A stretch of 64,000 nt of DNA from the NCBI GenBank assembly GCA_963706385.1, contig OY970153.1:943578-1007577 (forward strand). Direction: 5' to 3'. The notes beneath the pieces were generated by a model. The model worked only from the letters and a program-made list of their open reading frames with translations, searched no databases and had not been told where the DNA came from. The translations under genes were made by a program, and so were the position numbers. This stretch comes from an uncultured Alphaproteobacteria bacterium (GTDB lineage: Bacteria > Pseudomonadota > Alphaproteobacteria > Caulobacterales > Caulobacteraceae). This document shows positions 13,105-42,159 of the stretch, piece after piece (positions within the stretch are counted from its first letter, which is position 1; the number at the start of each line of letters is the position of its first letter).

Positions 13105-13209
13105 CGCCCGCTCCGCCGCGACTCGCCCGAAGGAAGGCCGCCCGACGCCCGTTGACCGTTCTGAACAAATAGGGAACATTGGCCGCCCCTTCACGCGCGG
13201 GAGCCGATC

Positions 13210-13902
13210 ATGGCAAGAATGTCGCGGGTCGTCATCCCTGGCGCGCCGCATCACGTGACCCAGAGGGGCAACCGGCGGCAGAAGACCTTCTTCCGCGAGG
13301 CCGACTACCTGTCCTATCTGCATCTGGCCGCCGAAGCCTGCAAAGCGGCCGAGGTCGAGATATGGGCCTACTGCCTGATGCCCAATCATGTTCACCTTAT
13401 CGCGGCGCCCGCGCGGGCCGACGCCCTGGCCCAGGCGGTGGGCGCGACCCATCTGCGCTACACCCGCCAGATCAACCGGCGCGAGCGCTGGAGCGGCTAT
13501 CTTTGGCAGGGACGATTCGCCTCCTTCGCCATGGACGAGGACTATCTGATCGCCTGCGCGCGTTATGTGGGCCTCAACCCGGTGCGCGCCGGACTGACAG
13601 CTCGGGCGATCGACTGGCCCTGGTCCAGCGTGCGCGCGCATGTCGAGGGGCGCGCCGATCCGCTACTGACGCCGGGACCGCTGGCCGCGCGGCTGGGTGA
13701 GCGCCTGCCGGGTTTCTTCGAGACGGATGTGCAAGAGGAAGGTCGCGAGGCCATCCGCCGCGCCTCATCCACCGGCCGTCCCCTGGGCGCCGCGGCCTGG
13801 ATCAAGGCCCTGGAAGCCTCGACCGGGCGGGCGCTGGCGGCTCCGCCCATGGGCCGGCCCGCGCGGAGGTCAAGCGATCCCGGCGCCGGGATCGGGGCCT
13901 GA
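13210..13902 (+). CDS. REP-associated tyrosine transposase (RAYT; IS200/IS605-like Y1 HUH transposase family)
   Basis: MARMSRVVIPGAPHHVTQRGNRRQKTFF...WAYCLMPNHVHLIA (HUH = HVH)...GYLWQGRFAS...ARYVGLNPVRAGL...WPWSS. These are characteristic RAYT/TnpA_REP motifs. Confidence 0.85.
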   Translation: MARMSRVVIPGAPHHVTQRGNRRQKTFFREADYLSYLHLAAEACKAAEVEIWAYCLMPNHVHLIAAPARADALAQAVGATHLRYTRQINRRERWSGYLWQGRFASFAMDEDYLIACARYVGLNPVRAGLTARAIDWPWSSVRAHVEGRADPLLTPGPLAARLGERLPGFFETDVQEEGREAIRRASSTGRPLGAAAWIKALEASTGRALAAPPMGRPARRSSDPGAGIGA

Positions 13903-20520: not shown

Positions 20521-20528
20521 CGGCATTG
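20521..20528. repeat. Left copy of the 8-bp target-site duplication (CGGCATTG)
   Basis: Identical octamer at 23141-23148, immediately outside the two terminal inverted repeats. Confidence 0.85.
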
Positions 20529-20592
20529 GGGAATTATCCCTTTGACAAAGTGACCACAAGCGCTAGTATGGCCCCATTGAATGAGGCCAGCC

Positions 20593-21531
20593 ATGAGCGA
20601 CTTTTCAAACCCGATCTTCCACGACGAGACCAAGGCCCGCGCATGGCTTGAAGCGCATCTGTGGCCGTATGGTCCGGTATGTCCGCATTGCACCGTCGTC
20701 GGCCACGCCACGGTGATCAAGGGCAAGACGGCGCGTGCTGGCCTGTATCAGTGTCAGGCGTGCGAGGAACAGTTCACGGTCACGGTCGGCACGATCTACG
20801 AGCGCAGCCACGTTCCGTTGAACAAATGGCTAGGCGCAACGCACCTCATGATGGCGTCGAAGAAAGGCATGAGCGCCCTTCAGATCGGTCGCATGATCGG
20901 CGTGACGTACAAAACCGCTTGGTTCATGTGCCATCGCATCCGCGAAAGCCTGCGCGAGACCAGTCCGACGCCGCTTGGCGGAAAGGGCAAGATCGTCGAG
21001 GCCGATGAAACCTATGTGGGCGGCAAGGACAAGAACCGTCACGCCTGGAAACGCAAGCACGTTCCAGGCCCCGGCGCGAAGGAAGCGGTGGTGTCGTTGG
21101 TTGAACGCGGCGGCCGTGTCCGCAGCGCCCACGTCAGCGACGTGAACAGCAAGAACCTGCGCTTGGTCCTGACCGAGGAAATCCACGCCGCCACCCACGT
21201 CATGACCGACACGGCCCGCGCCTATCCCGCGATCGGCGCCAAGTTCGCCCAGCACTCGATGGTCAATCACAGCATTGACGAATACGTGCGCGGCGAGGTT
21301 TCGACAAACACCGTAGAGAGCTATTTCGCCATCCTGAAACGCGGGATCGTCGGGACGTTCCATCATGTCTCGCCCCAGCACTTGAAGCGCTACGTCGGCG
21401 AGTTCGACTATCGCTACAACACTCGCACCGCGCTCGGTTACAGCGACGCCGAGCGCTTCGCTGAAGCCATCCCCGGCATCGTCGGCAAGAGGCTCACCTA
21501 TCGGCGGACTGGTGGACGCGCCGAAGCCTAA
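20593..21531 (+). CDS. IS1595-family transposase (N-terminal zinc ribbon plus DDE domain)
   Basis: MSDFSNPIFHDETKARAWLEAHLWPYGPVCPHCTVVGHATVIKGKTARAGLYQCQACEEQFTVTVGTIYERSHVPLNKW...VEADETYVGGK...TDTARAYPAI...HSMVNHS...EYVRGEVSTNTVESYFAILKRG. This is the classic ISXO2-like/IS1595 pattern. Confidence 0.9.
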   Translation: MSDFSNPIFHDETKARAWLEAHLWPYGPVCPHCTVVGHATVIKGKTARAGLYQCQACEEQFTVTVGTIYERSHVPLNKWLGATHLMMASKKGMSALQIGRMIGVTYKTAWFMCHRIRESLRETSPTPLGGKGKIVEADETYVGGKDKNRHAWKRKHVPGPGAKEAVVSLVERGGRVRSAHVSDVNSKNLRLVLTEEIHAATHVMTDTARAYPAIGAKFAQHSMVNHSIDEYVRGEVSTNTVESYFAILKRGIVGTFHHVSPQHLKRYVGEFDYRYNTRTALGYSDAERFAEAIPGIVGKRLTYRRTGGRAEA

Positions 21532-21555
21532 ACCGAAGCGAGGGAGGAAGAAGCC

Positions 21556-21786
21556 GTGTCCATCGAAATCCGAGAAACCATCGTAACGCCCATGGAAAAC
21601 GGTTACGGCGTTCAGCTTCGTATTTCTGACGTGACCAGCGAAGACGAATCCGCCGCATTTGTTCTTCGCCTGAGCGTTCAAATTCCAAAGACCGCGACAG
21701 ACCAGCTTTTCCTGATTGAACGCGAGGCGTTGGCGGCTGGAAATCGGGTTCTGCGCGACTTGATAGATGCTCGGAAAACGACATGA
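21556..21786 (+). CDS. Hypothetical 76-aa protein (transposon cargo)
   Basis: GTG start, 8 nt after GGAGG and 24 nt after the transposase stop. No recognisable motif. Confidence 0.45.
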   Translation: MSIEIRETIVTPMENGYGVQLRISDVTSEDESAAFVLRLSVQIPKTATDQLFLIEREALAAGNRVLRDLIDARKTT

Positions 21787-21881
21787 CGCAGGCTCTCTCA
21801 TCCGCTATTGTGTGAGCGGGTTGAGCGGCTGTGGCGGCCGGAACCTATCGACAGCGGCGGGGCTGCAACCCCGCCCGTCGT

Positions 21882-22217
21882 CTACCGCCCTATAATCTTT
21901 CCTGTCTTAGCGTCGTGCAAGGGGTCGTTTCCCCAATTCTGATTCTGCGGCGAATTTAGAAATTCGTCTGCTGTTGGGAGTTCTTTGGCGCCAACCGGAT
22001 TGCTGCAAAGTATCGAACCGGGGCCGCTTGAATAGCAATATTGCAGCGTTCCAGTGCGGGTATCGACCCGCCATACAGCGCCAGAATTTCCGGCCGGCGC
22101 AATCGCCCACGATCCCGCCGTGGGCAGTGATTTCGGGGGGGAAGGCATAGGCGCTGAAACGGGCGCCTTGTTGCAGGCCGCCAACAATAGAGCCGCCAAG
22201 AAAACGGGCGCTCTCAT
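21882..22217 (-). CDS. Hypothetical lipoprotein (transposon cargo)
   Basis: MRAPVFLAALLLAAC|NKAP has a signal peptide with an L-A-A-C lipobox. ATGA overlap with the upstream small ORF. Confidence 0.6.
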   Translation of the reverse strand: MRAPVFLAALLLAACNKAPVSAPMPSPPKSLPTAGSWAIAPAGNSGAVWRVDTRTGTLQYCYSSGPGSILCSNPVGAKELPTADEFLNSPQNQNWGNDPLHDAKTGKIIGR

Positions 22218-22378
22218 TTATCCCTCGGTCGCTTAGCTGGACTCGACTCCGCCTTCGGTTTGGCCTTCCGATGTATCGGGCCGTGCTTGGCGGCGGCGTC
22301 AATGGCGCGCTCGAACCGCTCCCAGCCATCCGGGCGCAGTTCGGGGGGCGCGTCGGTCCGATTGGGGGTGTTTGCCAT
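22214..22378 (-). CDS. Hypothetical small basic protein, about 54 aa (transposon cargo)
   Basis: MANTPNRTDAPPELRPDGWERFERAIDAAAKHGPIHRKAKPKAESSPAKRPRDK. Translationally coupled to the lipoprotein gene. The start is uncertain; alternatives go up to 22426. Confidence 0.4.
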   Translation of the reverse strand: MANTPNRTDAPPELRPDGWERFERAIDAAAKHGPIHRKAKPKAESSPAKRPRDK

Positions 22379-23054
22379 GGCTCGCGCACCTAAAGGGCGC
22401 CACACGTTCATGCCGACGCGGCGCATTGATCCTGTGCTCCAGAATGCCGTGAAACGACACGCGCGTCACGCCGGGGAAATCATCTGGTGCTGGAACATTC
22501 TCGCGGACCAACTCTACGAGCTGCTGGTCTCGTTGCTGATCGAAAAGAGCGCAGACCGGGCATGGGGGATCGCGTACGGAATCTGGACGCCGCTGCAAAG
22601 TGACGCCGCGAAGCGACAGATAATCCAAACCATCGCCGACGCGGTTCTAGCCAAGAATCCAGATCGCCTTGAAGCGGTGACGTGGCTCTTGCGCCAGACA
22701 AAAGACCTCGCCCAGCATCGGAACGATGTCGCCCACGTCGCGATTAAGTTCGCGAATGTAGGTGGCATCACCGGCAAGCCGCCCAAGATCATGCTGGTCC
22801 CCGCTGGCGCCTCTGCCAGCAAAGAGAGGGTGGAGCGCTTGCAAGATCACCCGACCGCGACGGTCTGGCGCCGCGCACGCGGCGATCTCATGGCGTTGTC
22901 GCGGTACGCCTTTCTTTTGTCGGCGAACATTCGAGGCGACGCTGCCGCTCCATGGCCTCGTAAGCCACGGTTGCTAGCCACTCCACCGAAGTCGAAGAAA
23001 GCCAGCCGAAAAGGTCGTCGTCGGCTGCCCAAAGCGCCGCCGCCCCCGCCTTAG
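22377..23054 (+). CDS. Hypothetical all-alpha protein with HEPN-like R-x4-H motif and Lys/Arg/Pro-rich tail (transposon cargo)
   Basis: Sequence ...LLRQTKDLAQHRNDVAHVAIKF... (R115-N-D-V-A-H120, nt 22719-22736), preceded and followed by predicted helices. C-terminus PRKPRLLATPPKSKKASRKGRRRLPKAPPPPP. The track start at 22260 would overlap the opposite-strand genes. ATG 22377 forms CCATGG with the divergent ORF start. Confidence 0.5.
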   Translation: MARAPKGRHTFMPTRRIDPVLQNAVKRHARHAGEIIWCWNILADQLYELLVSLLIEKSADRAWGIAYGIWTPLQSDAAKRQIIQTIADAVLAKNPDRLEAVTWLLRQTKDLAQHRNDVAHVAIKFANVGGITGKPPKIMLVPAGASASKERVERLQDHPTATVWRRARGDLMALSRYAFLLSANIRGDAAAPWPRKPRLLATPPKSKKASRKGRRRLPKAPPPPP

Positions 23055-23140
23055 CCATAGCTGCCGTTACTTTAGTCGCCGGCCTGTCACGCCCGCTCTG
23101 ATCTAGCTGTTGACGTGACTTTGTCAAAGGGATAATTCCC

Positions 23141-23148
23141 CGGCATTG
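23141..23148. repeat. Right copy of the 8-bp target-site duplication (CGGCATTG)
   Basis: Identical to 20521-20528. Confidence 0.85.
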
Positions 23149-23174
23149 ACAAGAACAAATCATGAACATATAGT
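23147..23174 (+). promoter_or_regulatory. Sigma-70-like promoter (TTGACA-16 nt-TATAGT) with a LexA box in the spacer
   Basis: TTGACA at 23147-23152 and TATAGT at 23169-23174. The spacer contains GAACaaatcatGAAC. The TTG of the -35 element is part of the transposon target duplication. Confidence 0.55.
23153..23167 (+). promoter_or_regulatory. Alphaproteobacterial LexA (SOS) box, copy 1: GAAC-N7-GAAC
   Basis: GAACAAATCATGAAC matches the GAAC-N7-GAAC / GTTC-N7-GTTC direct-repeat consensus described for alphaproteobacterial LexA. Confidence 0.65.
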
Positions 23175-23200
23175 GCCGATCTCACCATAAGGAGATCGCC

Positions 23201-23363
23201 TTGGCGCTGATCGAAAGAAGGTTCCAACTTGAGAACAAGGCTGGGGATGACCATCAGCGGCTGCCAGCACGGCAAACTGGAGTTGAAGCGTTGAGACGCG
23301 CCCGTTTGCCCCGGGTATCTACGACGACAACGATTCGCACAGTGAGGCGGTTACGTATTACCC
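23201..23363 (+). pseudogene. Truncated 5-prime fragment of a paralogue of the 23706..24464 gene
   Basis: It has the same GGAGATCG-N2-TTG translation start context as copy 2. The N-terminus LALIERRFQLENKAG resembles LPQNDQTFRLTNDVG. The reading frame runs straight into the antisense tRNA-Leu gene. Confidence 0.45.
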
Positions 23364-23450
23364 TGGTGCGGGCGGCCGGGGTCGAACCGGCACGGGGTTT
23401 CCCCCAACGGATTTTAAGTCCGTTGCGTCTACCAGTTTCGCCACGCCCGC
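23364..23450 (-). tRNA. tRNA-Leu (anticodon UAA), class II with long variable arm, CCA encoded
   Basis: Reverse complement: GCGGGCG TG GCGAAACTGGTAGACGC A ACGGA CTTAAAA TCCGT TGGGGGAAACCCCGTG CCGG TTCGACC CCGG C CGCCCGC ACCA. There is a 7-bp acceptor stem, a TTCGA T-loop and anticodon TAA. Confidence 0.93.
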
Positions 23451-23483
23451 ACTGTCGGCAGACATACCCCGCCCGCGCCGAAC

Positions 23484-23522
23484 TTTTAAGTCCGCTGCGT
23501 CCACCAATTCCGCCCCGTCCAC
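23484..23522 (-). pseudogene. tRNA-Leu 5-prime-half pseudo-copy
   Basis: TTTTAAGTCCGCTGCGTCCACCAATTCCGCCCCGTCCAC matches 23412-23450 of the intact tRNA at 32 of 39 positions. Similarity stops at the 3-prime side of the anticodon loop. The acceptor half (GTGGACG) does not match the intact gene. Confidence 0.6.
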
Positions 23523-23656
23523 CTGAAGCGGGCAGGGTTACAGGCGGAGCGCGCCCACTTCCAGCCCCGCCGCGCCGCCGCGTCCAGCGGGTCCGGCGTG
23601 ATGCGCTCGACCCCGGCCGCGGTCAGGGCGGTCCGGCGATCGAACAACCTCTATAA

Positions 23657-23671
23657 GAACAAATCACGAAC
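23657..23671 (+). promoter_or_regulatory. Alphaproteobacterial LexA (SOS) box, copy 2: GAAC-N7-GAAC, followed by TATAAT
   Basis: GAACAAATCACGAAC, then TATAAT at 23673-23678. The 26-nt core AAGAACAAATCA(T/C)GAACATATA(G/A)TGC is shared with copy 1. Confidence 0.65.
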
Positions 23672-23705
23672 ATATAATGCGTCAACATACCGCCAGGAGA
23701 TCGAT

Positions 23706-24464
23706 TTGCCCCAGAACGATCAGACTTTTCGGCTGACGAACGATGTTGGAAGCTTGGGATTGAGGTGCGCGGCGACGGGCGTTTCGCTCGCGGGCGTGCC
23801 GCTGCTACGTAAGACCCTCGTGGGATTGGAACCCCGGCCGACCGAAGAAATCGGCGCGCTGTTGGAAGAGGCCTATGGCCAGCCCGTCGATCCCGCCAAT
23901 GTGTCGCCCGGACTCGATGTCATCGCTCAGGCGCTCAATCGGGGAGATCTCGGACGGGCGATGATCGCCGCGGTACACCTAAGACTTCCCGAATTGAGCT
24001 GGGACGGTGCGGCGCGCATCGCCAAGGCGCACGGCGGCTTGACCAAATATGACCCCGACGAACCGCGGGACGAGCGCGGACGATGGACGACCGATGGGGC
24101 TTCGGGCCCGAACATGGCAAGTTCGCCCGGAGCCTTCCGTCACGACTCCCGGCCTGACGTCATGACGCCGATCCCGGTCGCCAACCGCCGTCTGCCCGAC
24201 GACGATCCCGCCTCCATCGTGTGCAACGTGGCGACCAGGCAATGTCAACTCAGCGCCCTGGACGACAAGACCAGACCATACTTCGACAGCTGCTGGAAGG
24301 CGGAAAACGCTTGCGAGCTTGTCGTATCCGCAAGTCGATCAAGCCCAGAACAACCGTTCTACGTTATATATCCAGACAGGACGGTTGTATCCATTTTGGA
24401 CGGAACCGCCATCATAACGCACATCGCCGGCACGAGACTGCAGCGTCCCTTTAGCGGGCGGTGA
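23706..24464 (+). CDS. Hypothetical protein (about 252 aa) downstream of LexA box 2
   Basis: TTG start, 5 nt after AGGAGA. The track ORF start at 23598 lies upstream of the putative promoter. It contains the motif YDPDEPRDERGRWT and a C-terminal region with four Cys. The composition looks AT-richer by eye. Confidence 0.55.
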   Translation: MPQNDQTFRLTNDVGSLGLRCAATGVSLAGVPLLRKTLVGLEPRPTEEIGALLEEAYGQPVDPANVSPGLDVIAQALNRGDLGRAMIAAVHLRLPELSWDGAARIAKAHGGLTKYDPDEPRDERGRWTTDGASGPNMASSPGAFRHDSRPDVMTPIPVANRRLPDDDPASIVCNVATRQCQLSALDDKTRPYFDSCWKAENACELVVSASRSSPEQPFYVIYPDRTVVSILDGTAIITHIAGTRLQRPFSGR

Positions 24465-24514
24465 TACTACGCATATACGGCAATCCACAATCATACGATG
24501 ACTGAAAATACGCC

Positions 24515-24913
24515 ATGATTTATCGCAACTTTCTCACGTTCACGATGTCGATCGCGATAGCATTTCTCGCCGCATCAGGAGGGTTTACAATGAACAACGA
24601 CGTAGAGAACGGCAATGATTTTCCGCCGATCTCACCAGCCGGGGAAACGGCTGCACCGAGCAACCCCGCATTTGTAAATCAATGTCTGTCACAACTGAAT
24701 TCCTTGTCCGGGATGGGAAAAATCACACCCGGCCCCAACCTGCTGACCAAGAACAATCGATGGGGATCCGTTTTCCGCGCCGATTTTTCGATTGGAAATG
24801 AAAAAACCGGTCCACTTAGAAATAGATTGGTCTGCTGGAAGCAGAAAGATGGGCAAATCAGCATCATGCTTGCAATTGGTCAAGCTGTGCCGGCCCTGAA
24901 TAGGGCCAACTGA
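24515..24913 (+). CDS. Hypothetical small exported or membrane-anchored protein (132 aa)
   Basis: N-terminal hydrophobic segment MSIAIAFLAASGGF. AT-rich codon usage compared with its surroundings. No family recognised. No clear RBS. Confidence 0.4.
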   Translation: MIYRNFLTFTMSIAIAFLAASGGFTMNNDVENGNDFPPISPAGETAAPSNPAFVNQCLSQLNSLSGMGKITPGPNLLTKNNRWGSVFRADFSIGNEKTGPLRNRLVCWKQKDGQISIMLAIGQAVPALNRAN

Positions 24914-25074
24914 TTTGAACTCGGGCGGATAGAGTCGAATTGGCGTTATGGCCAATAACTGATCGGCGCGCGGCTGGCTCAGCTCGATGATTCGTCCGAA
25001 TTCAGAAGTTCAAACGTTTAGGGCGTATTGGGCGCCGAAACCGCGTACGCTTTCGGCCAACACGCCTTGGTGGC

Positions 25075-25857
25075 CTAGATCGCCACCGGGGGGGCGCCCG
25101 GCTCGTCCGGAGTGATGTTGGCCACCCCCGCGGCGGTCAGGACGGCGACCAGCTCGGCCACCGCCCTTTCGACCTCGACCGGATCGCGGCCGCGGATCAC
25201 CAGGTTGGAGCCGTAACCCGCCGGGCCGAAGAACGGATAGCTGCCCAGCGAAAGCGCCGGGTGGGCCTTGGCCACGGCCTCCAGCGGCTCGGCCAGCACC
25301 CCCTCGCCCGTGCCGTCGACGCGCACGTTGCGGGCGACCACCACCGCCCCGCCCTTCAGCCGCCAGCCCACGTCCTCCAACATGCCGCGCATGATCTGCG
25401 GCACCCCGGCCAGCACGAAGACGTTGCCGATCATGAAGCCCGGCGGGCCGGCCACCGGGTTGCGCACCAGCTCGCCGCCCTCGGGCACGCGCGCCATGCG
25501 CCGGCGCGCGGCGTTCAGCTCGACGCCCGGCCGGGCCAGCATCATGGCGATGATCTCGGGGTTCTCGTACAGCGGCACGCCGAACGCCTCGGCCACACAG
25601 TCGGCGGTGATGTCGTCGTGGGTCGGGCCGATGCCGCCGGTGGTGATAACGTAATCGTAGCGCGCCCGCAGCGCGTCGAGCGCCGTGATGATCTCGTCCT
25701 TGACGTCGCCCACCACCCGCGCCTCGGCCAGGTCCACCCCGTGGGCGCCAAGATATTTGGCGATGACGTTGAGGTTGGTGTCCTGGGTGCGGCCGGACAG
25801 GATCTCGTCGCCGATGATCATCACCGCGGCGGTCACTCGATCTTTGCTCGCGTTCAC
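25075..25857 (-). CDS. CinA-like molybdopterin-binding (MoCF_BD) domain protein (competence/damage-inducible protein A family)
   Basis: [29 protein letters not shown]...[23 protein letters not shown] is the typical CinA N-terminal domain. Confidence 0.85.
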
Positions 25858-25912
25858 GCCCGTCCCTTCCTATCTCCGCCCATCCTTGGGTCCCGTTTCG
25901 AGTAGGCCGTCG

Positions 25913-26695
25913 ATGCAATTCCCGCAACCGCTGGCGCGCGGCGTTCTCGTCCGGCGCTACAAGCGTTTCTTCGCCGAAGTGGCGCTGGAGGGCGGCGGCG
26001 AGGCCACCGCCCATTGTCCCAACCCCGGCGCCATGCTCGGGCTGAACATGCCGGGCGTAACCGTATGGCTTTCCAAGTCGCCCGACCTGAAACGCAAGCT
26101 CCCCTACACATGGGAATTGGTGGAAGTCCCCGGTGATGGGCCGGATGGTTTTGTAACGTGTGGTATCAACACCATGCACCCCAACAGGATCGCCGCCGAG
26201 GCCATCGCCGAGGGGCTGATCCCGGAGCTGGCCGGCTATCCGATCCTGAAGCGCGAGGTGAGGTACGGCGAAAACAGCCGCGTCGACCTGGTGCTCGAGG
26301 CGCCGGACCGGCCGGCCTGTTTCGTCGAGGTGAAGAGTGACAAGTCCTTTTTACAACGCGACCTGAGGCCGGATCATAGTCTTTGGCTCGAAGTGAAAAA
26401 CTGCCACCTTTCAAGGACTAAAGGGGTCGCAGAATTTCCCGACTGCGTGGCGGCGCGGTCGCTGAAGCATCTGCGGGAGCTTCAAACGATGGTGGCGGAG
26501 GGCGACCGAGCCGTTGTGCTCTTCGTCGTCCAGCGCACCGATTGCGAAGCGTTTTCGGCTTGCCGCGAACTTGACCCGGCCTTCGCGCGCGGACTCGATG
26601 AAGCGGCCGACGCAGGCGTTGAGGTGTTAGTCTATGCCTGCGACGTGACTGTCGAGGAGATCAAGATTTCACGGAAGATGGCTTGGCACCGCTAA
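25913..26695 (+). CDS. sfsA: SfsA (sugar fermentation stimulation protein A / DNA-binding nuclease-fold protein); hybrid gene with an AT-richer 3-prime third
   Basis: [28 protein letters not shown]...AHCPNPGAM...NSRVDLVLE...CFVEVK...[18 protein letters not shown]...[13 protein letters not shown]. It is 260 aa. From about 26336 the codon usage becomes AT-richer. Confidence 0.8.
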
Positions 26696-26741
26696 GTGGC
26701 TCAGGATCGATTTGTTTAGTCCTCGCTGGTCACAACCAGAA

Positions 26742-27332
26742 TTACCCCGGTGGATTGAGCTGGGGCGCAAGAATGCTTCGACCAAAATCTGTGTCCAATA
26801 GGAGCACTTCGCCAAGAACCTTTGGCTGAGGTCTACCTGCTGGGTCCAGCAGCGCCTGCCGTTTGACGACTGTGAAAACCTCGGTGTGCCCGTCAGCCAT
26901 CAGCCGAAATGTTTCAATCCTATCATTAGGCGTGTCATATCGAACGATATGGCAGTGGCCGCCCTCGGCGCACGACGCCACCGAGAATGGCGCAACTGAA
27001 ATGACTTCGCGCTTTGGCTCGACCCACTCGCGCCCAACGAAGTCGGAAGCCTTCGTCCCTTCCGGTAGCGGTAACCCCAAATCCTGCGAACCGAGAAAGC
27101 GAATATCGCCTTTGCGACCCGAAGGTGAAGACAGCAGGTCCAAGTGGGCCTTCTGAAGGGTTAGTTCGAGCGCTTGAAGAGCGTCCACGCCCCACCCCGC
27201 CGATTGGCGCTCTCCCGATGGCCATGCGATTATGTATTCGCAACGGTAGTTATCATCGACGGCGACAGGCGCGTGGATGGTGAGCGAAACAAATTCACCT
27301 CGCATATCGAATGCCCGCTCGGCGATGATCAT
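26742..27332 (-). CDS. Hypothetical 196-aa protein (orphan cargo between the two sfsA 3-prime copies)
   Basis: MIIAERAFDMRGEFVSLTIHAPVAVDDNYRCEYIIAWPSGERQSAGWGVDALQALELTLQKAHLDLL... The N-terminal half resembles, from memory, an uncharacterised family with the G.D.LQAL..L motif. The track ORF 26742..28511 beyond 27332 is antisense to map and to the sfsA fragment. Confidence 0.5.
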   Translation of the reverse strand: MIIAERAFDMRGEFVSLTIHAPVAVDDNYRCEYIIAWPSGERQSAGWGVDALQALELTLQKAHLDLLSSPSGRKGDIRFLGSQDLGLPLPEGTKASDFVGREWVEPKREVISVAPFSVASCAEGGHCHIVRYDTPNDRIETFRLMADGHTEVFTVVKRQALLDPAGRPQPKVLGEVLLLDTDFGRSILAPQLNPPG

Positions 27333-27380
27333 GACCTGCCTCAAAAGTGATGGTTGCAAGGTTGATCGGGTTGGTGGGCG

Positions 27381-27752
27381 GAGGTCAAGCTGGACGACGG
27401 CCTGTGCCGATAAGGTCCCGACGGGCCGTGACTCGAGGTCAAGAACTGCCACCTCTCGCGCGGCGCGGGCCTCGCCGAATTTCCCGACAGCGTGACCAGC
27501 CGGGGGCTGAAGCACTTGGGCGACCTCACCCGCGAGGCGCGGGCCGGCTCGCGCGCGGTGATGCTGTTCGTGGTCCAGCGCACCGATTGTGTGGCCTTCG
27601 AGGCCGCCGCCGACCTCGACGGCGCCTATGCGGCGGGCCTCTTCGCCGCGGCGCAAGCGGGCGTTGAAGTTCTGTGCTATGATTGCCACATAGACCCGAC
27701 CCGCATCCGCCTGAATCGCCGCCTGCCCTGGCGGTCCGGGCCGCAACGCTAG
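27381..27752 (+). pseudogene. Displaced, decaying second copy of the sfsA 3-prime third
   Basis: [100 protein letters not shown]... is collinear with 26327-26695 and G+C-rich like the backbone. There are two in-frame stops near its beginning and no upstream half. Confidence 0.75.
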
Positions 27753-27764
27753 AGACCGCGCTTG

Positions 27765-28589
27765 ATGACCGAGACCGACGCCCTGGAAACCGCCATCCGC
27801 CGGCGCGGCTCGGCGATCAAGATCCATGGACCCGAGGACTTCGAGGGCATGCGCCGCGCCGGCAGGCTGGCGGCCGAGTGTCTGGACATGCTGACCGCGC
27901 ACGTCACGCCGGGGGTGATCACCGACGAGCTGGACCGGCTGGCCCGCGAGTTCATCCTGGACCATGGCGCGGTCCCGTCCTGCCTCTACTATCGCGGCTA
28001 TCCCAAGACCCTGTGCATCTCGCCCAACCACGTGGTCTGCCACGGCATCCCGGGCCCGCGTCCCTTGCGCGACGGCGAGATCGCCAACATCGACGTGACC
28101 GTGACGCTGGACGGCTGGTACGGCGACACCAGCCGCATGTATCTGGTGGGCGAGGTTCCGACCCGCGCGCGCCGGCTGGTCGAGGTGACCTATGAGGCGC
28201 TGGAGCGCGGCATAGCCGCCGTGAAGCCCGGCGCGCGGCTGGGCGACATCGGCCACGCCATCCAGTCCTATGTCGAGGCCCAGCGCTGTTCGGTGGTGCG
28301 CGACTTCTGCGGCCACGGGGTCGGCCGGGTGTTTCATGACGCCCCCAATGTCCTGCACTTCGGCCGCCCAGGCGAAGGCGAGGTGCTGCGGGCCGGCATG
28401 TTCTTCACCATCGAACCGATGGTGAACCTCGGCAAGCACCAGGTGAAACTGCTGGCCGACGGCTGGACGGCGGTGACCCGCGACAAGTCGCTGTCGGCCC
28501 AGTGCGAACACGCGATCGGCGTGACCGAGACCGGCGCGGAGGTCTTCACCCTCTCTCCCGCGGGCCTGTTCCGGCCCGTCACGGCCTGA
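27765..28589 (+). CDS. map: Type I methionine aminopeptidase
   Basis: …VCHGIP…DGEIANIDVTV…DGWYGDTSRMY…HGVGRVFHD…FTIEPM… are the metal-ligand motifs of Map. Confidence 0.92.
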   Translation: MTETDALETAIRRRGSAIKIHGPEDFEGMRRAGRLAAECLDMLTAHVTPGVITDELDRLAREFILDHGAVPSCLYYRGYPKTLCISPNHVVCHGIPGPRPLRDGEIANIDVTVTLDGWYGDTSRMYLVGEVPTRARRLVEVTYEALERGIAAVKPGARLGDIGHAIQSYVEAQRCSVVRDFCGHGVGRVFHDAPNVLHFGRPGEGEVLRAGMFFTIEPMVNLGKHQVKLLADGWTAVTRDKSLSAQCEHAIGVTETGAEVFTLSPAGLFRPVTA

Positions 28590-41853: not shown

Positions 41854-42159
41854 TTAAGCGACTTCATATATGGCCGAGTCTACTGAACCCGGAAGGAACA
41901 AGCCGGCCTCGGCTGATTTCGCGATCAGCTTTTGGAGATCCGGATCTGCTCCGATCTTGGAGCGCGTCGCCTGATAAACGCCCAGGTTCTCGGATGAACT
42001 GACAACCAAGACGCGCCCCATCGGGCCGCCGATCTGCGTAAGGATTCGTGCATCTCCACCGCCATGCGCTTTAACACGGTCAACAAGATGATGAAGAAAT
42101 TCCATAGCTTCGGTGTTTTTTCCGCCAGCAATCCTGAATGATATAGACGACATAATCAT
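41854..42159 (-). CDS. Hypothetical 101-aa protein
   Basis: AAGGAGA RBS, 7 nt upstream of the ATG. The region is AT-rich. The alternating pattern suggests a small alpha+beta fold. No family recognised. Confidence 0.5.
   Translation of the reverse strand: MIMSSISFRIAGGKNTEAMEFLHHLVDRVKAHGGGDARILTQIGGPMGRVLVVSSSENLGVYQATRSKIGADPDLQKLIAKSAEAGLFLPGSVDSAIYEVA

What the first reader, a model, noticed from the sequence alone, without database searches (positions are those of the whole stretch)
23147..24913. Duplicated LexA-box promoter/RBS cassette; copy 2 drives an orphan AT-rich two-gene module, copy 1 heads a truncated paralogue
Two about 60-nt segments share three elements: the core AAGAACAAATCA(T/C)GAACATATA(G/A)TGC (GAAC-N7-GAAC followed by TATAGT or TATAAT), the same Shine-Dalgarno context GGAGATCG-N2-TTG, and related N-terminal codons (F-Q-L-E-N-K-A-G versus F-R-L-T-N-D-V-G). 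GAAC-N7-GAAC is the alphaproteobacterial LexA operator consensus.

Copy 1 (23153-23167) precedes only about 54 codons before the frame runs into the antisense tRNA-Leu. Copy 2 (23657-23671) precedes a 252-aa protein with no recognisable family. That protein has a YDPDEPRDERGRWT motif and a four-Cys C-terminal region. A 132-aa protein with an N-terminal hydrophobic anchor follows it.

Both genes look much AT-richer than the backbone. This could be an SOS-induced, horizontally acquired effector plus an exported partner, such as a toxin/immunity or damage-induced killing module. That function is speculation. The operator duplication itself is directly visible.
Basis: partly seen in the sequence, partly recalled or inferred. 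Interest (0 to 1): 0.7.

Follow-up and report, generated by a model that had tools for sequence, protein, structure and literature searches.

The report
SOS-controlled polymorphic toxin–immunity gene pair
The repeated "LexA-box cassette" is the conserved DNA-damage-responsive promoter of a large, unannotated family of alphaproteobacterial and phage toxins with swappable killing domains and matching immunity genes; this window holds one intact toxin–immunity pair and the decayed 5' stump of a second.

Summary
A 26-nt core (24/26 identical) containing GAAC-N7-GAAC, plus GGAGATCG-N2-TTG, occurs at 23151 and 23655.

It is not a recent duplication. It is the family-wide promoter of a toxin family. 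An exact LexA box lies within 110 nt upstream of 43 of 78 homologues from diverse Alphaproteobacteria, against 0.3 expected.

The 252-aa protein has a conserved N-terminal domain of about 128 aa ending in Y-D-P-x-E-P-R-D-x-x-G-R-W-T. A disordered linker and a variable C-terminal domain follow. About 1,090 clusters at 50% identity share the N-domain. Their C-termini include CdiA-EC869-type DNases followed by CdiI immunity genes.

The downstream gene co-varies with this toxin's C-terminal type, so it is the immunity gene. It most likely starts at 24590, giving 107 aa. The "hydrophobic anchor" is then not translated.

Copy 1 is the complete promoter plus about 14 codons of a lost paralogue, which is intact at a syntenic Caulobacterales locus. 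Copy 2 has lost its -35 box.

The mechanism I favour is an SOS-derepressed, colicin/S-pyocin-like bacteriocin. How the toxin is delivered is unknown. Phage-borne members hint at release by lysis or carriage on particles.

An IS1595-family element repeatedly inserts at the same position of this promoter.

The parts
20530..23139 (.). IS1595-family element carrying passenger ORFs. Its terminal inverted repeats are GGGAATTATCCCTTTGACAAAGT. It is inserted immediately upstream of promoter copy 1, with the 8-bp target duplication CGGCATTG at 20522-20529 and 23140-23147.
   Evidence: Transposase Pfam hits are PF12762 (5e-37) and PF12760. The inverted repeats were found and read directly. The same element type, with its own perfect target duplications, sits at the same promoter position in L021, L049 and L006.
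23146..23174 (+). Promoter copy 1: -35 TTGACA (23146-23151), 17-nt spacer, -10 TATAGT (23169-23174).
   Evidence: It matches the consensus at 11 of 12 positions and is the only such site in 23000-25150. The layout is conserved in 38 aligned homologue promoters.
23153..23167 (+). LexA box 1, GAACAAATCATGAAC, lying within the promoter spacer.
   Evidence: The published motif is in PMC12700426.
23191..23245 (+). Remnant of a lost paralogue: SD GGAGATCG, TTG start at 23201, and about 14 codons (ALIERRFQLENKAG). Homology to the family ends here.
   Evidence: The stub resembles the N-terminus of P0022, AQTERRPQFENKAGGLGLSC. The family HMM does not detect it. An intact 435-aa gene stands in the same context in L021.
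23364..23450 (-). tRNA-Leu(UAA). Its 3' end faces the stub.
   Evidence: ARAGORN; Rfam 58.9 bits.
23484..23520 (-). Decayed copy of the 5' half of tRNA-Leu, 84% identical to the intact gene.
   Evidence: the repeat finder family D6.
23580..23631 (-). Fragment resembling the 3' end of the cinA-like gene, 75% identical to 25094-25145. It abuts promoter copy 2 and marks a rearrangement junction at about 23648-23654.
   Evidence: the repeat finder family D2; ORF translations.
23657..23671 (+). LexA box 2, GAACAAATCACGAAC, followed by -10 TATAAT (23673-23678). There is no TTGACA -35; TCTATA stands in its place.
23706..24464 (+). Toxin gene, 252 aa, TTG start preceded by SD GGAGATCG (23696-23703). 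The conserved N-domain is aa 1-128 (23706-24089), with the junction motif YDPDEPRDERGRWT at 24048-24089. A disordered linker spans aa about 130-165. The C-terminal domain, aa about 165-250, has four Cys.
   Evidence: 135 homologues. The motif is near-invariant. The AF2 model has mean pLDDT 84.5 with two confident domains. There is no Pfam, PHROG, NCBIfam, PADLOC or PDB match.
24590..24913 (+). Cognate immunity gene, 107 aa from ATG 24590, with AGGAGG 7 nt upstream. The longer ORF from 24515 would add an N-terminal hydrophobic segment that is probably not translated.
   Evidence: Homologues at 43-56% identity lie directly downstream of the same-type toxins P0003, P0008 and P0016, and all start at the equivalent of residue 26-30. 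The gene call in L080 starts at the equivalent of 24590.

Best explanation
The region holds members of an unannotated family of LexA-repressed polymorphic toxins.

**Shown.**
- The 252-aa protein shares a conserved N-terminal domain of about 128 aa, ending in the junction motif Y-D/N-P-x-E-P-R-D-x-x-G-R-W-T, with about 1,090 protein clusters.
- A disordered linker follows the motif, and then C-terminal domains that differ from member to member. These include CdiA-EC869-type DNases and Tox-REase-5.
- The gene immediately downstream co-varies with the C-terminal type. It is CdiI for the DNases and the 107-aa protein for the type found here.
- The promoter layout, TTGAC then 1-3 nt then GAACAAA-N4-GAAC then ATAnnT, is conserved across orders of Alphaproteobacteria.

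**Inferred.**
- LexA sits between the -35 and -10 boxes. RecA-stimulated LexA cleavage after DNA damage derepresses co-transcription of toxin and immunity.
- Both proteins lack signal peptides, so they would accumulate in the cytoplasm as a neutralised pair.
- The toxin would then be released without a dedicated secretion system, as colicins and S-pyocins are. Release would most likely come from SOS- or prophage-linked lysis. The toxin would kill neighbours that lack the immunity gene, with the N-domain providing uptake or particle attachment.

**Copy 1.** It is the intact promoter plus about 14 codons of a second family member whose body was deleted next to tRNA-Leu.

**Copy 2.** It heads the intact pair but lost its -35 box at a rearrangement junction. 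The pair may therefore be transcribed weakly from its own -10 box, or by read-through from copy 1, which lies 500 nt upstream with no predicted terminator in between.
For: **LexA box.** Exact in 43 of 78 homologue loci against 0.31 expected, and within one mismatch in 54 of 78 against 3.8 expected. Its position between -35 and -10 is conserved. Orthologues L081, L083 and L084 keep the box, the SD and the TTG start. A second box with the same layout lies at 13163 in this window. The Caulobacter consensus is GTTCN7GTTC (PMC12700426).

**Polymorphic architecture.** The motif sits at about residue 115-128 in nearly all of 120 homologues, whose total lengths run from 139 to 440 aa. There are about 20 C-terminal classes. 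The N-domain matches 1,092 clusters and is always N-terminal. PF21111 is found in 24 of 103 representatives, as a full-length match in L001 at 1e-25. CdiI (PF07262) lies immediately downstream in L001 and L033 at 1e-28 and 6e-23.

**Immunity co-variation for this type.** Found downstream of all three homologues examined, besides the window itself.

**No conserved neighbouring secretion genes** in 79 loci.

**Phage-borne members.** They sit beside tail, portal and endolysin genes and carry the same toxin domains.

**Copy 1 as a remnant.** L021 has the order IS1595, ORF, promoter, intact 435-aa toxin, tRNA-Leu.
Against: - No experiment here shows LexA binding, induction, toxicity or export.
- The C-terminal domain and the immunity protein of this particular pair match no known toxin or immunity family or fold. 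Their roles rest on position and on analogy with other family members.
- The N-domain resembles no colicin or pyocin translocation or receptor domain and no solved structure.
- No lysis gene is present.
- About a third of homologue loci lack a recognisable LexA box, and most phage-borne members lack one.
- Copy 2 lacks a -35 box, so expression of the intact pair is uncertain.
Confidence: 0.72

Rival explanations
1. Intracellular SOS-triggered suicide or abortive-infection module, similar in outcome to BapE or a toxin-antitoxin pair. The toxin would never leave the cell. After severe DNA damage or phage attack it would kill or arrest its own producer.
For: - Toxin and partner have no signal peptide, and 79 loci have no conserved secretion genes nearby.
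- The promoter is SOS-controlled.
- There is a Caulobacter precedent for an SOS-induced killing nuclease, BapE (mentioned in PMC12700426).
- Members occur in phage genomes.
Against: - The immunity gene is co-transcribed downstream from the same promoter, so it would neutralise the toxin in the producer.
- A constant N-domain with swappable C-terminal toxins and CdiI-type immunity is the signature of inter-cell competition toxins.
- A few members carry weak matches to peptidoglycan hydrolases (SLT, glucosaminidase, CHAP), which cannot reach their substrate from the cytoplasm.
- There is no PADLOC match.
- The genome scan recovered no locus from Caulobacter vibrioides, the species of BapE. Its hits in that group were a Caulobacter sp. 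S45 locus and Caulobacteraceae/Caulobacterales MAGs. BapE is therefore probably not a member, although its sequence was not compared directly.
Confidence: 0.12
2. Cargo of a phage-derived particle (prophage virion, gene transfer agent or tailocin) or of a secretion system encoded elsewhere. The N-domain and the PRDxxGRWT junction would act as the loading or attachment signal rather than as a self-translocation device.
For: - Full-length family members lie inside phage structural and lysis modules. In L088 the order is tail-fibre-like gene, endolysin-like gene, then the toxin, with the last two overlapping. In L090 and L097 the toxin is near the portal gene. In L087 it lies between tail genes.
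- The same junction motif followed by a G/S-rich linker occurs in phage portal fusions (L099, L105, L112), in a MuF-domain protein (L111) and in an ART-PolyVal polyvalent protein (L101). These are protein classes that Iyer et al. 2017 (PMC5512222) regard as packaged in capsids and injected.
Against: - The chromosomal members, including this one, have no phage or secretion genes nearby (window context).
- The function of the motif is not established in any system.
- IMG/VR contigs may include prophage-flanking host DNA.
- This reading overlaps with the favoured one and differs only in the delivery step.
Confidence: 0.12
3. Non-functional debris. Both cassettes would be decaying leftovers of horizontally acquired DNA at a tRNA hot spot, with no current regulated function.
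For: - Copy 1 is a pseudogene stump.
- Copy 2 lacks a -35 box.
- The locus is littered with fragments: a tRNA half, a cinA 3' end, an sfsA fragment and an IS element.
Against: - The toxin and immunity ORFs are intact.
- A contig from an independent sequencing run, 99.9% identical, encodes the identical protein.
- The AF2 model is confident for both domains.
- The LexA box, -10 box, SD and TTG start of copy 2 are all intact, and its core is nearly identical to the promoter core of a distant homologue, L027.
Confidence: 0.04

Closest known systems
Nuclease colicins and S-type pyocins (SOS/RecA-induced protein bacteriocins with a downstream immunity gene)
   Same: - A DNA-damage-derepressed promoter with the operator over the core promoter.
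- A toxin gene followed directly by a small cognate immunity gene.
- A modular protein with a constant delivery part and an exchangeable C-terminal killing domain.
- No signal peptide and no dedicated secretion apparatus. As with S-pyocins, no lysis gene either.
   Different: - The N-domain has no sequence or fold similarity to any colicin or pyocin translocation or receptor domain.
- The proteins are much smaller, 126-656 aa.
- The host range is Alphaproteobacteria and their phages, and the operator is the GAAC-N7-GAAC type.
- Release and uptake are untested.
Polymorphic toxin systems in the sense of Zhang et al. 2012 (PMC3482391), in particular CdiA-CT(EC869)/CdiI modules
   Same: - A conserved N-terminal part, a sharp conserved junction motif, variable C-terminal toxins, and immunity genes immediately downstream.
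- The same PF21111 DNase and PF07262 CdiI domains occur in many members.
   Different: - There is no T5SS, T6SS or T7SS trafficking domain, no repeats and no signal peptide.
- The junction motif is PRDxxGRWT, not VENN or DPxGL.
- The genes are under LexA control.
- In this window the leftover is a 5' promoter stub rather than the usual 3' orphan toxin/immunity cassettes.
MuF-type polymorphic toxins and polyvalent proteins of temperate phages (Jamet et al. 2017, recalled from memory; Iyer et al. 2017, PMC5512222)
   Same: - Phage-encoded members exist.
- The same junction motif with a G/S-rich linker occurs in portal, MuF and ART-PolyVal fusion proteins.
- The C-terminal toxin domains are shared.
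   Different: - The N-domain is not MuF or portal (no Pfam hit).
- Most members are stand-alone chromosomal two-gene modules with their own SOS promoter.
BapE, the LexA-controlled killing endonuclease of Caulobacter crescentus (Bos et al. 2012, cited in PMC12700426)
   Same: An alphaproteobacterial, SOS-induced, potentially lethal protein.
   Different: - No immunity partner or polymorphic architecture is known to me for BapE (from my own knowledge, not checked here).
- The genome scan recovered no locus from C. vibrioides. Its hits in that group were Caulobacter sp. S45 and Caulobacteraceae/Caulobacterales MAGs.
- Sequences were not compared directly.

Membership tests
Polymorphic toxin-immunity system | Conserved N-terminal region joined to C-terminal domains that vary between homologues | tested here: met
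   The N-domain is conserved in 120 of 120 hits, and there are about 20 C-terminal classes. It matches 1,092 clusters and is always N-terminal.
Polymorphic toxin-immunity system | C-terminal domains are recognised toxin domains | tested here: met
   This holds for the family: PF21111 in 24 of 103 representatives, and Tox-REase-5. The C-domain of this window's protein matches nothing known.
Polymorphic toxin-immunity system | Cognate immunity gene immediately downstream, co-varying with the toxin type | tested here: met
   CdiI (PF07262) lies downstream of the DNase members. Homologues of the 107-aa protein lie downstream of all three same-type toxins examined.
Polymorphic toxin-immunity system | N-terminal trafficking domain tied to a known secretion route | tested here: not met
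   There is no signal peptide and no Pfam, NCBIfam, PHROG or PDB match for the N-domain. No secretion genes are conserved nearby.
LexA (SOS) regulon of Alphaproteobacteria | GAAC-N7-GAAC / GTTC-N7-GTTC operator overlapping the core promoter | tested here: met
   Both boxes are present. The box is conserved across homologues far above background. The published motif is in PMC12700426.
LexA (SOS) regulon of Alphaproteobacteria | LexA binding and induction by DNA damage | not testable with these tools
   Needs EMSA or ChIP, and RNA-seq or qRT-PCR after mitomycin C or UV.
Colicin / S-pyocin-type bacteriocin | Homologous translocation or receptor-binding domains (for example the Pyocin_S, colicin T or R domains) | tested here: not met
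   No Pfam hit on 66 plus 103 family members apart from the C-terminal toxin domains. No PDB sequence or fold match.
Colicin / S-pyocin-type bacteriocin | SOS-inducible toxin gene with co-transcribed immunity gene | tested here: met
   Met at sequence level only.
Colicin / S-pyocin-type bacteriocin | Extracellular release and receptor-mediated killing of sensitive cells | not testable with these tools
   Needs killing assays with induced cultures or purified protein.
Type II toxin-antitoxin system | Small autoregulating antitoxin with a DNA-binding domain, usually upstream of a small toxin | tested here: not met
   The partner gene is downstream and has no DNA-binding domain hit. The promoter carries a LexA box instead.

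The most novel reading that the evidence does not exclude
The N-domain plus the PRDxxGRWT junction would define a previously undescribed delivery module. About 1,090 clusters of alphaproteobacterial and phage toxins would share it. It would couple toxin deployment to the SOS response or to prophage induction. Delivery would be either a new self-translocating bacteriocin class for Alphaproteobacteria or a way of loading toxins onto phage- or GTA-like particles. The junction motif, shared with portal, MuF and polyvalent proteins, would be the common handle or cleavage site.
Probability: 0.4. Interest if true: 0.75.

Novelty: new variant of a known kind. Interest (0 to 1): 0.6.

Why it matters
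- DNA-damage-induced protein bacteriocins are textbook for enterobacteria and Pseudomonas. To my knowledge, and in the literature I could search, none is described for Alphaproteobacteria.
- This would be a large, completely unannotated family with a new, confidently folding N-domain and a sharp junction motif. It is already linked to well-understood toxin/immunity cassettes (EC869 DNase and CdiI), so genetics and biochemistry could start at once.
- It adds a recurrent, non-repair member to alphaproteobacterial SOS regulons.
- It offers a handle on an unexplained linear motif that also sits in capsid-packaged phage proteins.
- It reveals an IS1595-family element with apparent homing to one promoter.

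Tried and rejected
**Family and structure searches with no result**
- Pfam, PHROGs, NCBIfam and PADLOC on the 252-aa, 132/107-aa and 264-aa proteins gave no meaningful hits.
- The PDB profile search with the N-domain gave 0 hits.
- Foldseek of the AF2 model against PDB and BFVD gave nothing at E<=0.001.

**Hypotheses tested and rejected**
- The stub as a frameshifted longer pseudogene: the family HMM against the six-frame translation found only the intact gene.
- An att-type direct repeat of the tRNA 3' end that would delimit an integrase island: nothing of 14 nt or more was found beyond the known tRNA half-copy.
- A general tRNA association of the family: only L021 has a tRNA-Leu adjacent to the toxin gene.
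- Conserved neighbours such as secretion or lysis genes in 79 loci: none was found beyond the toxin gene and type-specific immunity genes.
- A recent tandem duplication as the origin of the two cassettes: coding similarity collapses after 14 codons, while the operator core is conserved across the whole family.

**Searches that failed or were not possible**
- The first attempt at search for related loci, using the full-length alignment, failed.
- Exact-protein look-ups of the cinA-like gene and the IS transposase found nothing on record. No close relative with the ancestral arrangement was therefore obtained, and the order of the rearrangements could not be resolved.
- Literature searches for the motif and for LexA-controlled polymorphic toxins found no description of this family.
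- BapE could not be compared directly, because no sequence was at hand.
Full report

Yes. The 26-nt core AAGAACAAATCA(T/C)GAACATATA(G/A)TGC occurs twice, at 23151-23176 and 23655-23680. The copies are 24/26 identical, and shuffled sequence gave no matches. Each core is followed by AGGAGATCG-N2-TTG at the same distance apart from one indel. The two GAAC-N7-GAAC boxes are at 23153-23167 and 23657-23671. tRNA-Leu(UAA) lies between them on the minus strand at 23364-23450.

Three details need correcting:
- Only copy 1 is a full promoter: TTGACA-17-TATAGT, 11 of 12 positions, and the only such site in 23000-25150. In copy 2 the homology starts at AAGAAC. TCTATA stands where the -35 box should be, although the -10 box is a perfect TATAAT.
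- Similarity between the stub and the intact gene ends after about 14 codons, and the family profile does not see the stub.
- The 132-aa ORF most likely starts at ATG 24590 (section 3).

**2. What the 252-aa protein is**

It has no Pfam, PHROG, NCBIfam or PADLOC match, but it is not an orphan. A database search found 135 homologues. All share the first ~128 residues, which end in a nearly invariant Y-(D/N)-P-x-E-P-R-D-x-x-G-R-W-T at residues ~115-128. After the motif the sequences diverge into a G/S/P-rich linker and unrelated C-termini, with total lengths of 139-440 aa.

An exhaustive phmmer search with the N-domain alone found 1,092 clusters at 50% identity (394 at E<=1e-10). The domain is always at the N-terminus, and protein lengths run from 126 to 656 aa. 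The C-termini fall into about 20 classes.

Of 103 representatives, 24 carry the CdiA-EC869-type DNase domain PF21111 and one carries Tox-REase-5. Single members have weak hits to SLT, glucosaminidase or CHAP. In L001 the DNase match is full length (1e-25).

The AlphaFold model (mean pLDDT 84.5) has three parts:
- a confident N-domain, residues ~15-115, with four short strands and four helices;
- a disordered linker, residues ~130-165;
- a confident C-domain, residues ~165-250, with two helices carrying a twin Cx6C pattern followed by a four-stranded sheet.

Neither domain matches a solved or viral predicted structure.

**3. The partner gene**

In the DNase class the gene immediately downstream is a full-length CdiI immunity protein, PF07262, at 1e-28 and 6e-23. 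One other class is followed by a weak Imm-NTF2-2 match.

For the C-terminal class found in this window, homologues of the downstream protein (43-56% identity) lie directly after the toxin gene in all three other loci examined: L081, L083 and L084. All three begin at the equivalent of residue 26-30 of the 132-aa ORF and have no hydrophobic N-terminus. In the window an AGGAGG lies 7 nt before ATG 24590. An independent gene call on a 99.9%-identical contig from another sequencing run also starts there.

The partner is therefore a 107-aa cytoplasmic immunity protein. It is not an exported or anchored protein.

**4. The LexA box is a family trait**

I fetched 79 loci that encode the N-domain from species-representative genomes. 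All the named ones are Alphaproteobacteria: Nitrospirillum, Azospirillum sp. B4, Caulobacter sp. S45 and other Caulobacterales, Roseiarcus, Methylocystis, Xanthobacteraceae, Stellaceae, Rhizomicrobium and Aliidongia.

| LexA box in the 110 nt before the predicted start | Loci observed | Loci expected from the rest of the same loci |
|---|---|---|
| Exact GAAC-N7-GAAC or GTTC-N7-GTTC | 43 of 78 | 0.31 |
| Up to one mismatch | 54 of 78 | 3.8 |

Aligned, the promoters read ttgac-N1-3-GAACAAA-N4-GAAC-ATA...t, so the operator fills the spacer between -35 and -10. Orthologues of this toxin type keep the -35 box, the LexA box, the -10 box, a GGAG Shine-Dalgarno and a TTG start, which supports translation from TTG 23706.

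GTTCN7GTTC is the published Caulobacter LexA motif (PMC12700426). A further box with the same layout (TTGACC-N5-GAACAAATAGGGAAC) precedes a RAYT-like gene at 13210 in this window.

The promoter core of a Stellaceae homologue, L027, matches copy 2 as well as copy 1 does. The resemblance between the two window copies therefore reflects constraint on the operator and promoter, not a recent duplication.

**5. What copy 1 is**

L021, a Caulobacterales MAG, is syntenic with the left part of the window. Its gene order is:
- an IS1595 transposase, 80% nt identity to the window's;
- an ORF that shares its N-terminus with the window's 264-aa ORF;
- the same promoter region, 84% identical over 97 nt;
- an intact 435-aa family toxin;
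- a tRNA-Leu on the opposite strand.

The window has the same order, but only ~14 codons of the toxin remain. The stub reads ALIERRFQLENKAG; compare P0022, AQTERRPQFENKAGGLGLSC. Copy 1 is thus the stump of a once-complete toxin gene.

Around copy 2 there are further scars: a half copy of tRNA-Leu (23484-23520, 84% identity) and a fragment resembling the 3' end of the neighbouring cinA-like gene (23580-23631, 75% identity). The latter runs up to the point where copy 2 loses its -35 box. Further right, a full low-GC3 sfsA sits next to a native-like sfsA 3' fragment.

I read these as repeated patch replacements by foreign DNA anchored in flanking homologous genes. I could not resolve the order of events, because no close relative with the ancestral arrangement was obtained.

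**6. How it most likely works**

Shown:
- the architecture of the toxin family;
- the pairing of toxin types with immunity genes;
- the conserved operator.

Inferred:
- LexA represses the promoter, and DNA damage derepresses toxin and immunity together.
- Both proteins are cytoplasmic, since neither has a signal peptide.
- No secretion or lysis gene is conserved nearby. Release would therefore depend on lysis or on machinery encoded elsewhere.
- The N-domain would mediate entry into, or delivery to, neighbours that lack the immunity gene.

This is the logic of nuclease colicins and S-pyocins, but built from unrelated parts.

Copy 2 lacks a -35 box, and no terminator is predicted on the plus strand between the copies. 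The intact pair may therefore also be transcribed from copy 1, through the antisense tRNA-Leu, with box 2 acting as a second LexA site. That is speculation.

**7. A link to phages**

A scan of IMG/VR found full-length family members inside phage structural or lysis modules. They lie next to a tail-fibre-like gene and an endolysin-like gene in L088, near portal genes in L090 and L097, and between tail genes in L087. They carry the same toxin domains, the EC869 DNase in L086 and Tox-REase-5 in L088, and most lack LexA boxes.

The junction motif also occurs on its own, again followed by a G/S-rich linker, in large phage proteins:
- portal fusions (L099, L105, L112);
- a MuF-domain protein (L111);
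- an ART-PolyVal polyvalent protein (L101).

Iyer et al. 2017 consider these protein classes to be packaged in capsids and injected (PMC5512222). That paper does not describe the motif.

This keeps open a second delivery route, loading onto or into phage- or GTA-like particles. It also suggests the motif is a general handle or cleavage site.

**8. Rivals**

- Intracellular suicide or abortive infection fits the absence of export signals. It fits poorly with co-expressed immunity and with the polymorphic CDI-type cassettes.
- "Debris" fits copy 1, but not the intact, conserved and confidently folding pair.

**9. Novelty**

The kind of system is known: a polymorphic toxin with immunity, or an SOS-inducible bacteriocin. 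The following appear not to be described in Pfam, NCBIfam, PHROGs or the literature I could search:
- the N-domain;
- the junction motif as a family hallmark;
- the LexA control;
- the alphaproteobacterial and phage distribution.

**10. Side finding**

The IS1595-family element at 20530-23139 has perfect 8-bp target duplications. Related elements have inserted independently at exactly the same place, with the duplication ending in the TTG of the promoter's -35 TTGAC, in L021, L049 and L006. The duplications are CGGCATTG in the window, GCAACTTG in L021, AAACCTTG in L049 and AATCCTTG in L006. L033 probably has the same arrangement. This points to site-specific targeting of this promoter. The target TTGACAAG resembles the subterminal TTGACAAAG of the element's own inverted repeat.

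Noticed in passing
window 20522-23147; L021 2489-4933; L049 2725-4939; L006 2261-4939; L033 about 1-812: IS1595-family elements of 2.2-2.7 kb, carrying passenger ORFs, have inserted independently at the identical position of the toxin promoter. Each has a perfect 8-bp target duplication that ends in the TTG of the -35 TTGAC: CGGCATTG, GCAACTTG, AAACCTTG and AATCCTTG. The target TTGACAAG resembles the element's own subterminal TTGACAAAG, which suggests promoter homing.
   Followed up: partly
L092-L118 (IMG/VR contigs), e.g. L099 5379-8816, L105 1946-4048, L112 6435-8639, L101 6681-15113, L111 7569-9281: The junction motif K-(Y/F)-(D/N/S)-P-x-(E/Q)-P-R-D-E-(R/H)-G-R-W-T, followed by a G/S-rich linker, also occurs without the N-domain in phage portal fusions, a MuF-domain protein and an ART-PolyVal polyvalent protein. 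It sits between the virion-associated part and the cargo domains. Its function is not described in the paper I checked (PMC5512222).
   Followed up: partly
window 23484-23520 and 23580-23631: A decayed copy of the 5' half of tRNA-Leu (84% identity) and a fragment resembling the 3' end of the cinA-like gene (75% identity to 25094-25145) lie between the intact tRNA-Leu and promoter copy 2. They are scars of a rearrangement or a patch replacement.
   Followed up: partly
window 25685-26695 and 27492-27752 (with 26700-27490 between them): sfsA is present twice: a full copy with unusually low GC3 (0.45) and a separate native-like 3' fragment. About 0.8 kb of low-GC DNA separates them. This looks like a second foreign patch next to the toxin locus.
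   Followed up: no
window 13150-13902: A further LexA-type box, GAACAAATAGGGAAC, sits 5 nt after a TTGACC -35 box, upstream of a gene resembling REP-associated tyrosine transposases (NCBIfam NF047646, 7e-22, just under the cut-off).
   Followed up: partly
L058, L067, L072 (upstream of the toxin gene); also L051, L052, L031: Some family members have a different palindrome between -35 and -10 in place of a LexA box, for example TTGACAAAATACACAATTTGTGTATAAT, or a TACGC-N5-GCGTA-like site. This suggests that control has switched to another repressor in some lineages.
   Followed up: no
window 21882-22217 (-), inside the IS element: A passenger ORF of 111 aa has a lipoprotein-type N-terminus (MRAPVFLAALLLAAC). 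The other passenger ORFs (76, 70 and 264 aa) have no family match. The 264-aa ORF shares only its first ~44 residues with the corresponding ORF in L021.
   Followed up: no
L013 4974-5921 and 8787-9665; L014 4929-6149 and 9399-10364: Nitrospirillum genomes carry two family toxins within 5 kb of each other, plus further copies on other contigs. Such multi-copy arsenals are typical of polymorphic toxins.
   Followed up: no
window 28413-28427 and 41885-41899: Two more exact GAAC-N7-GAAC matches, both GC-rich in the spacer. They were not examined and may be chance, given 1.3 expected per window.
   Followed up: no
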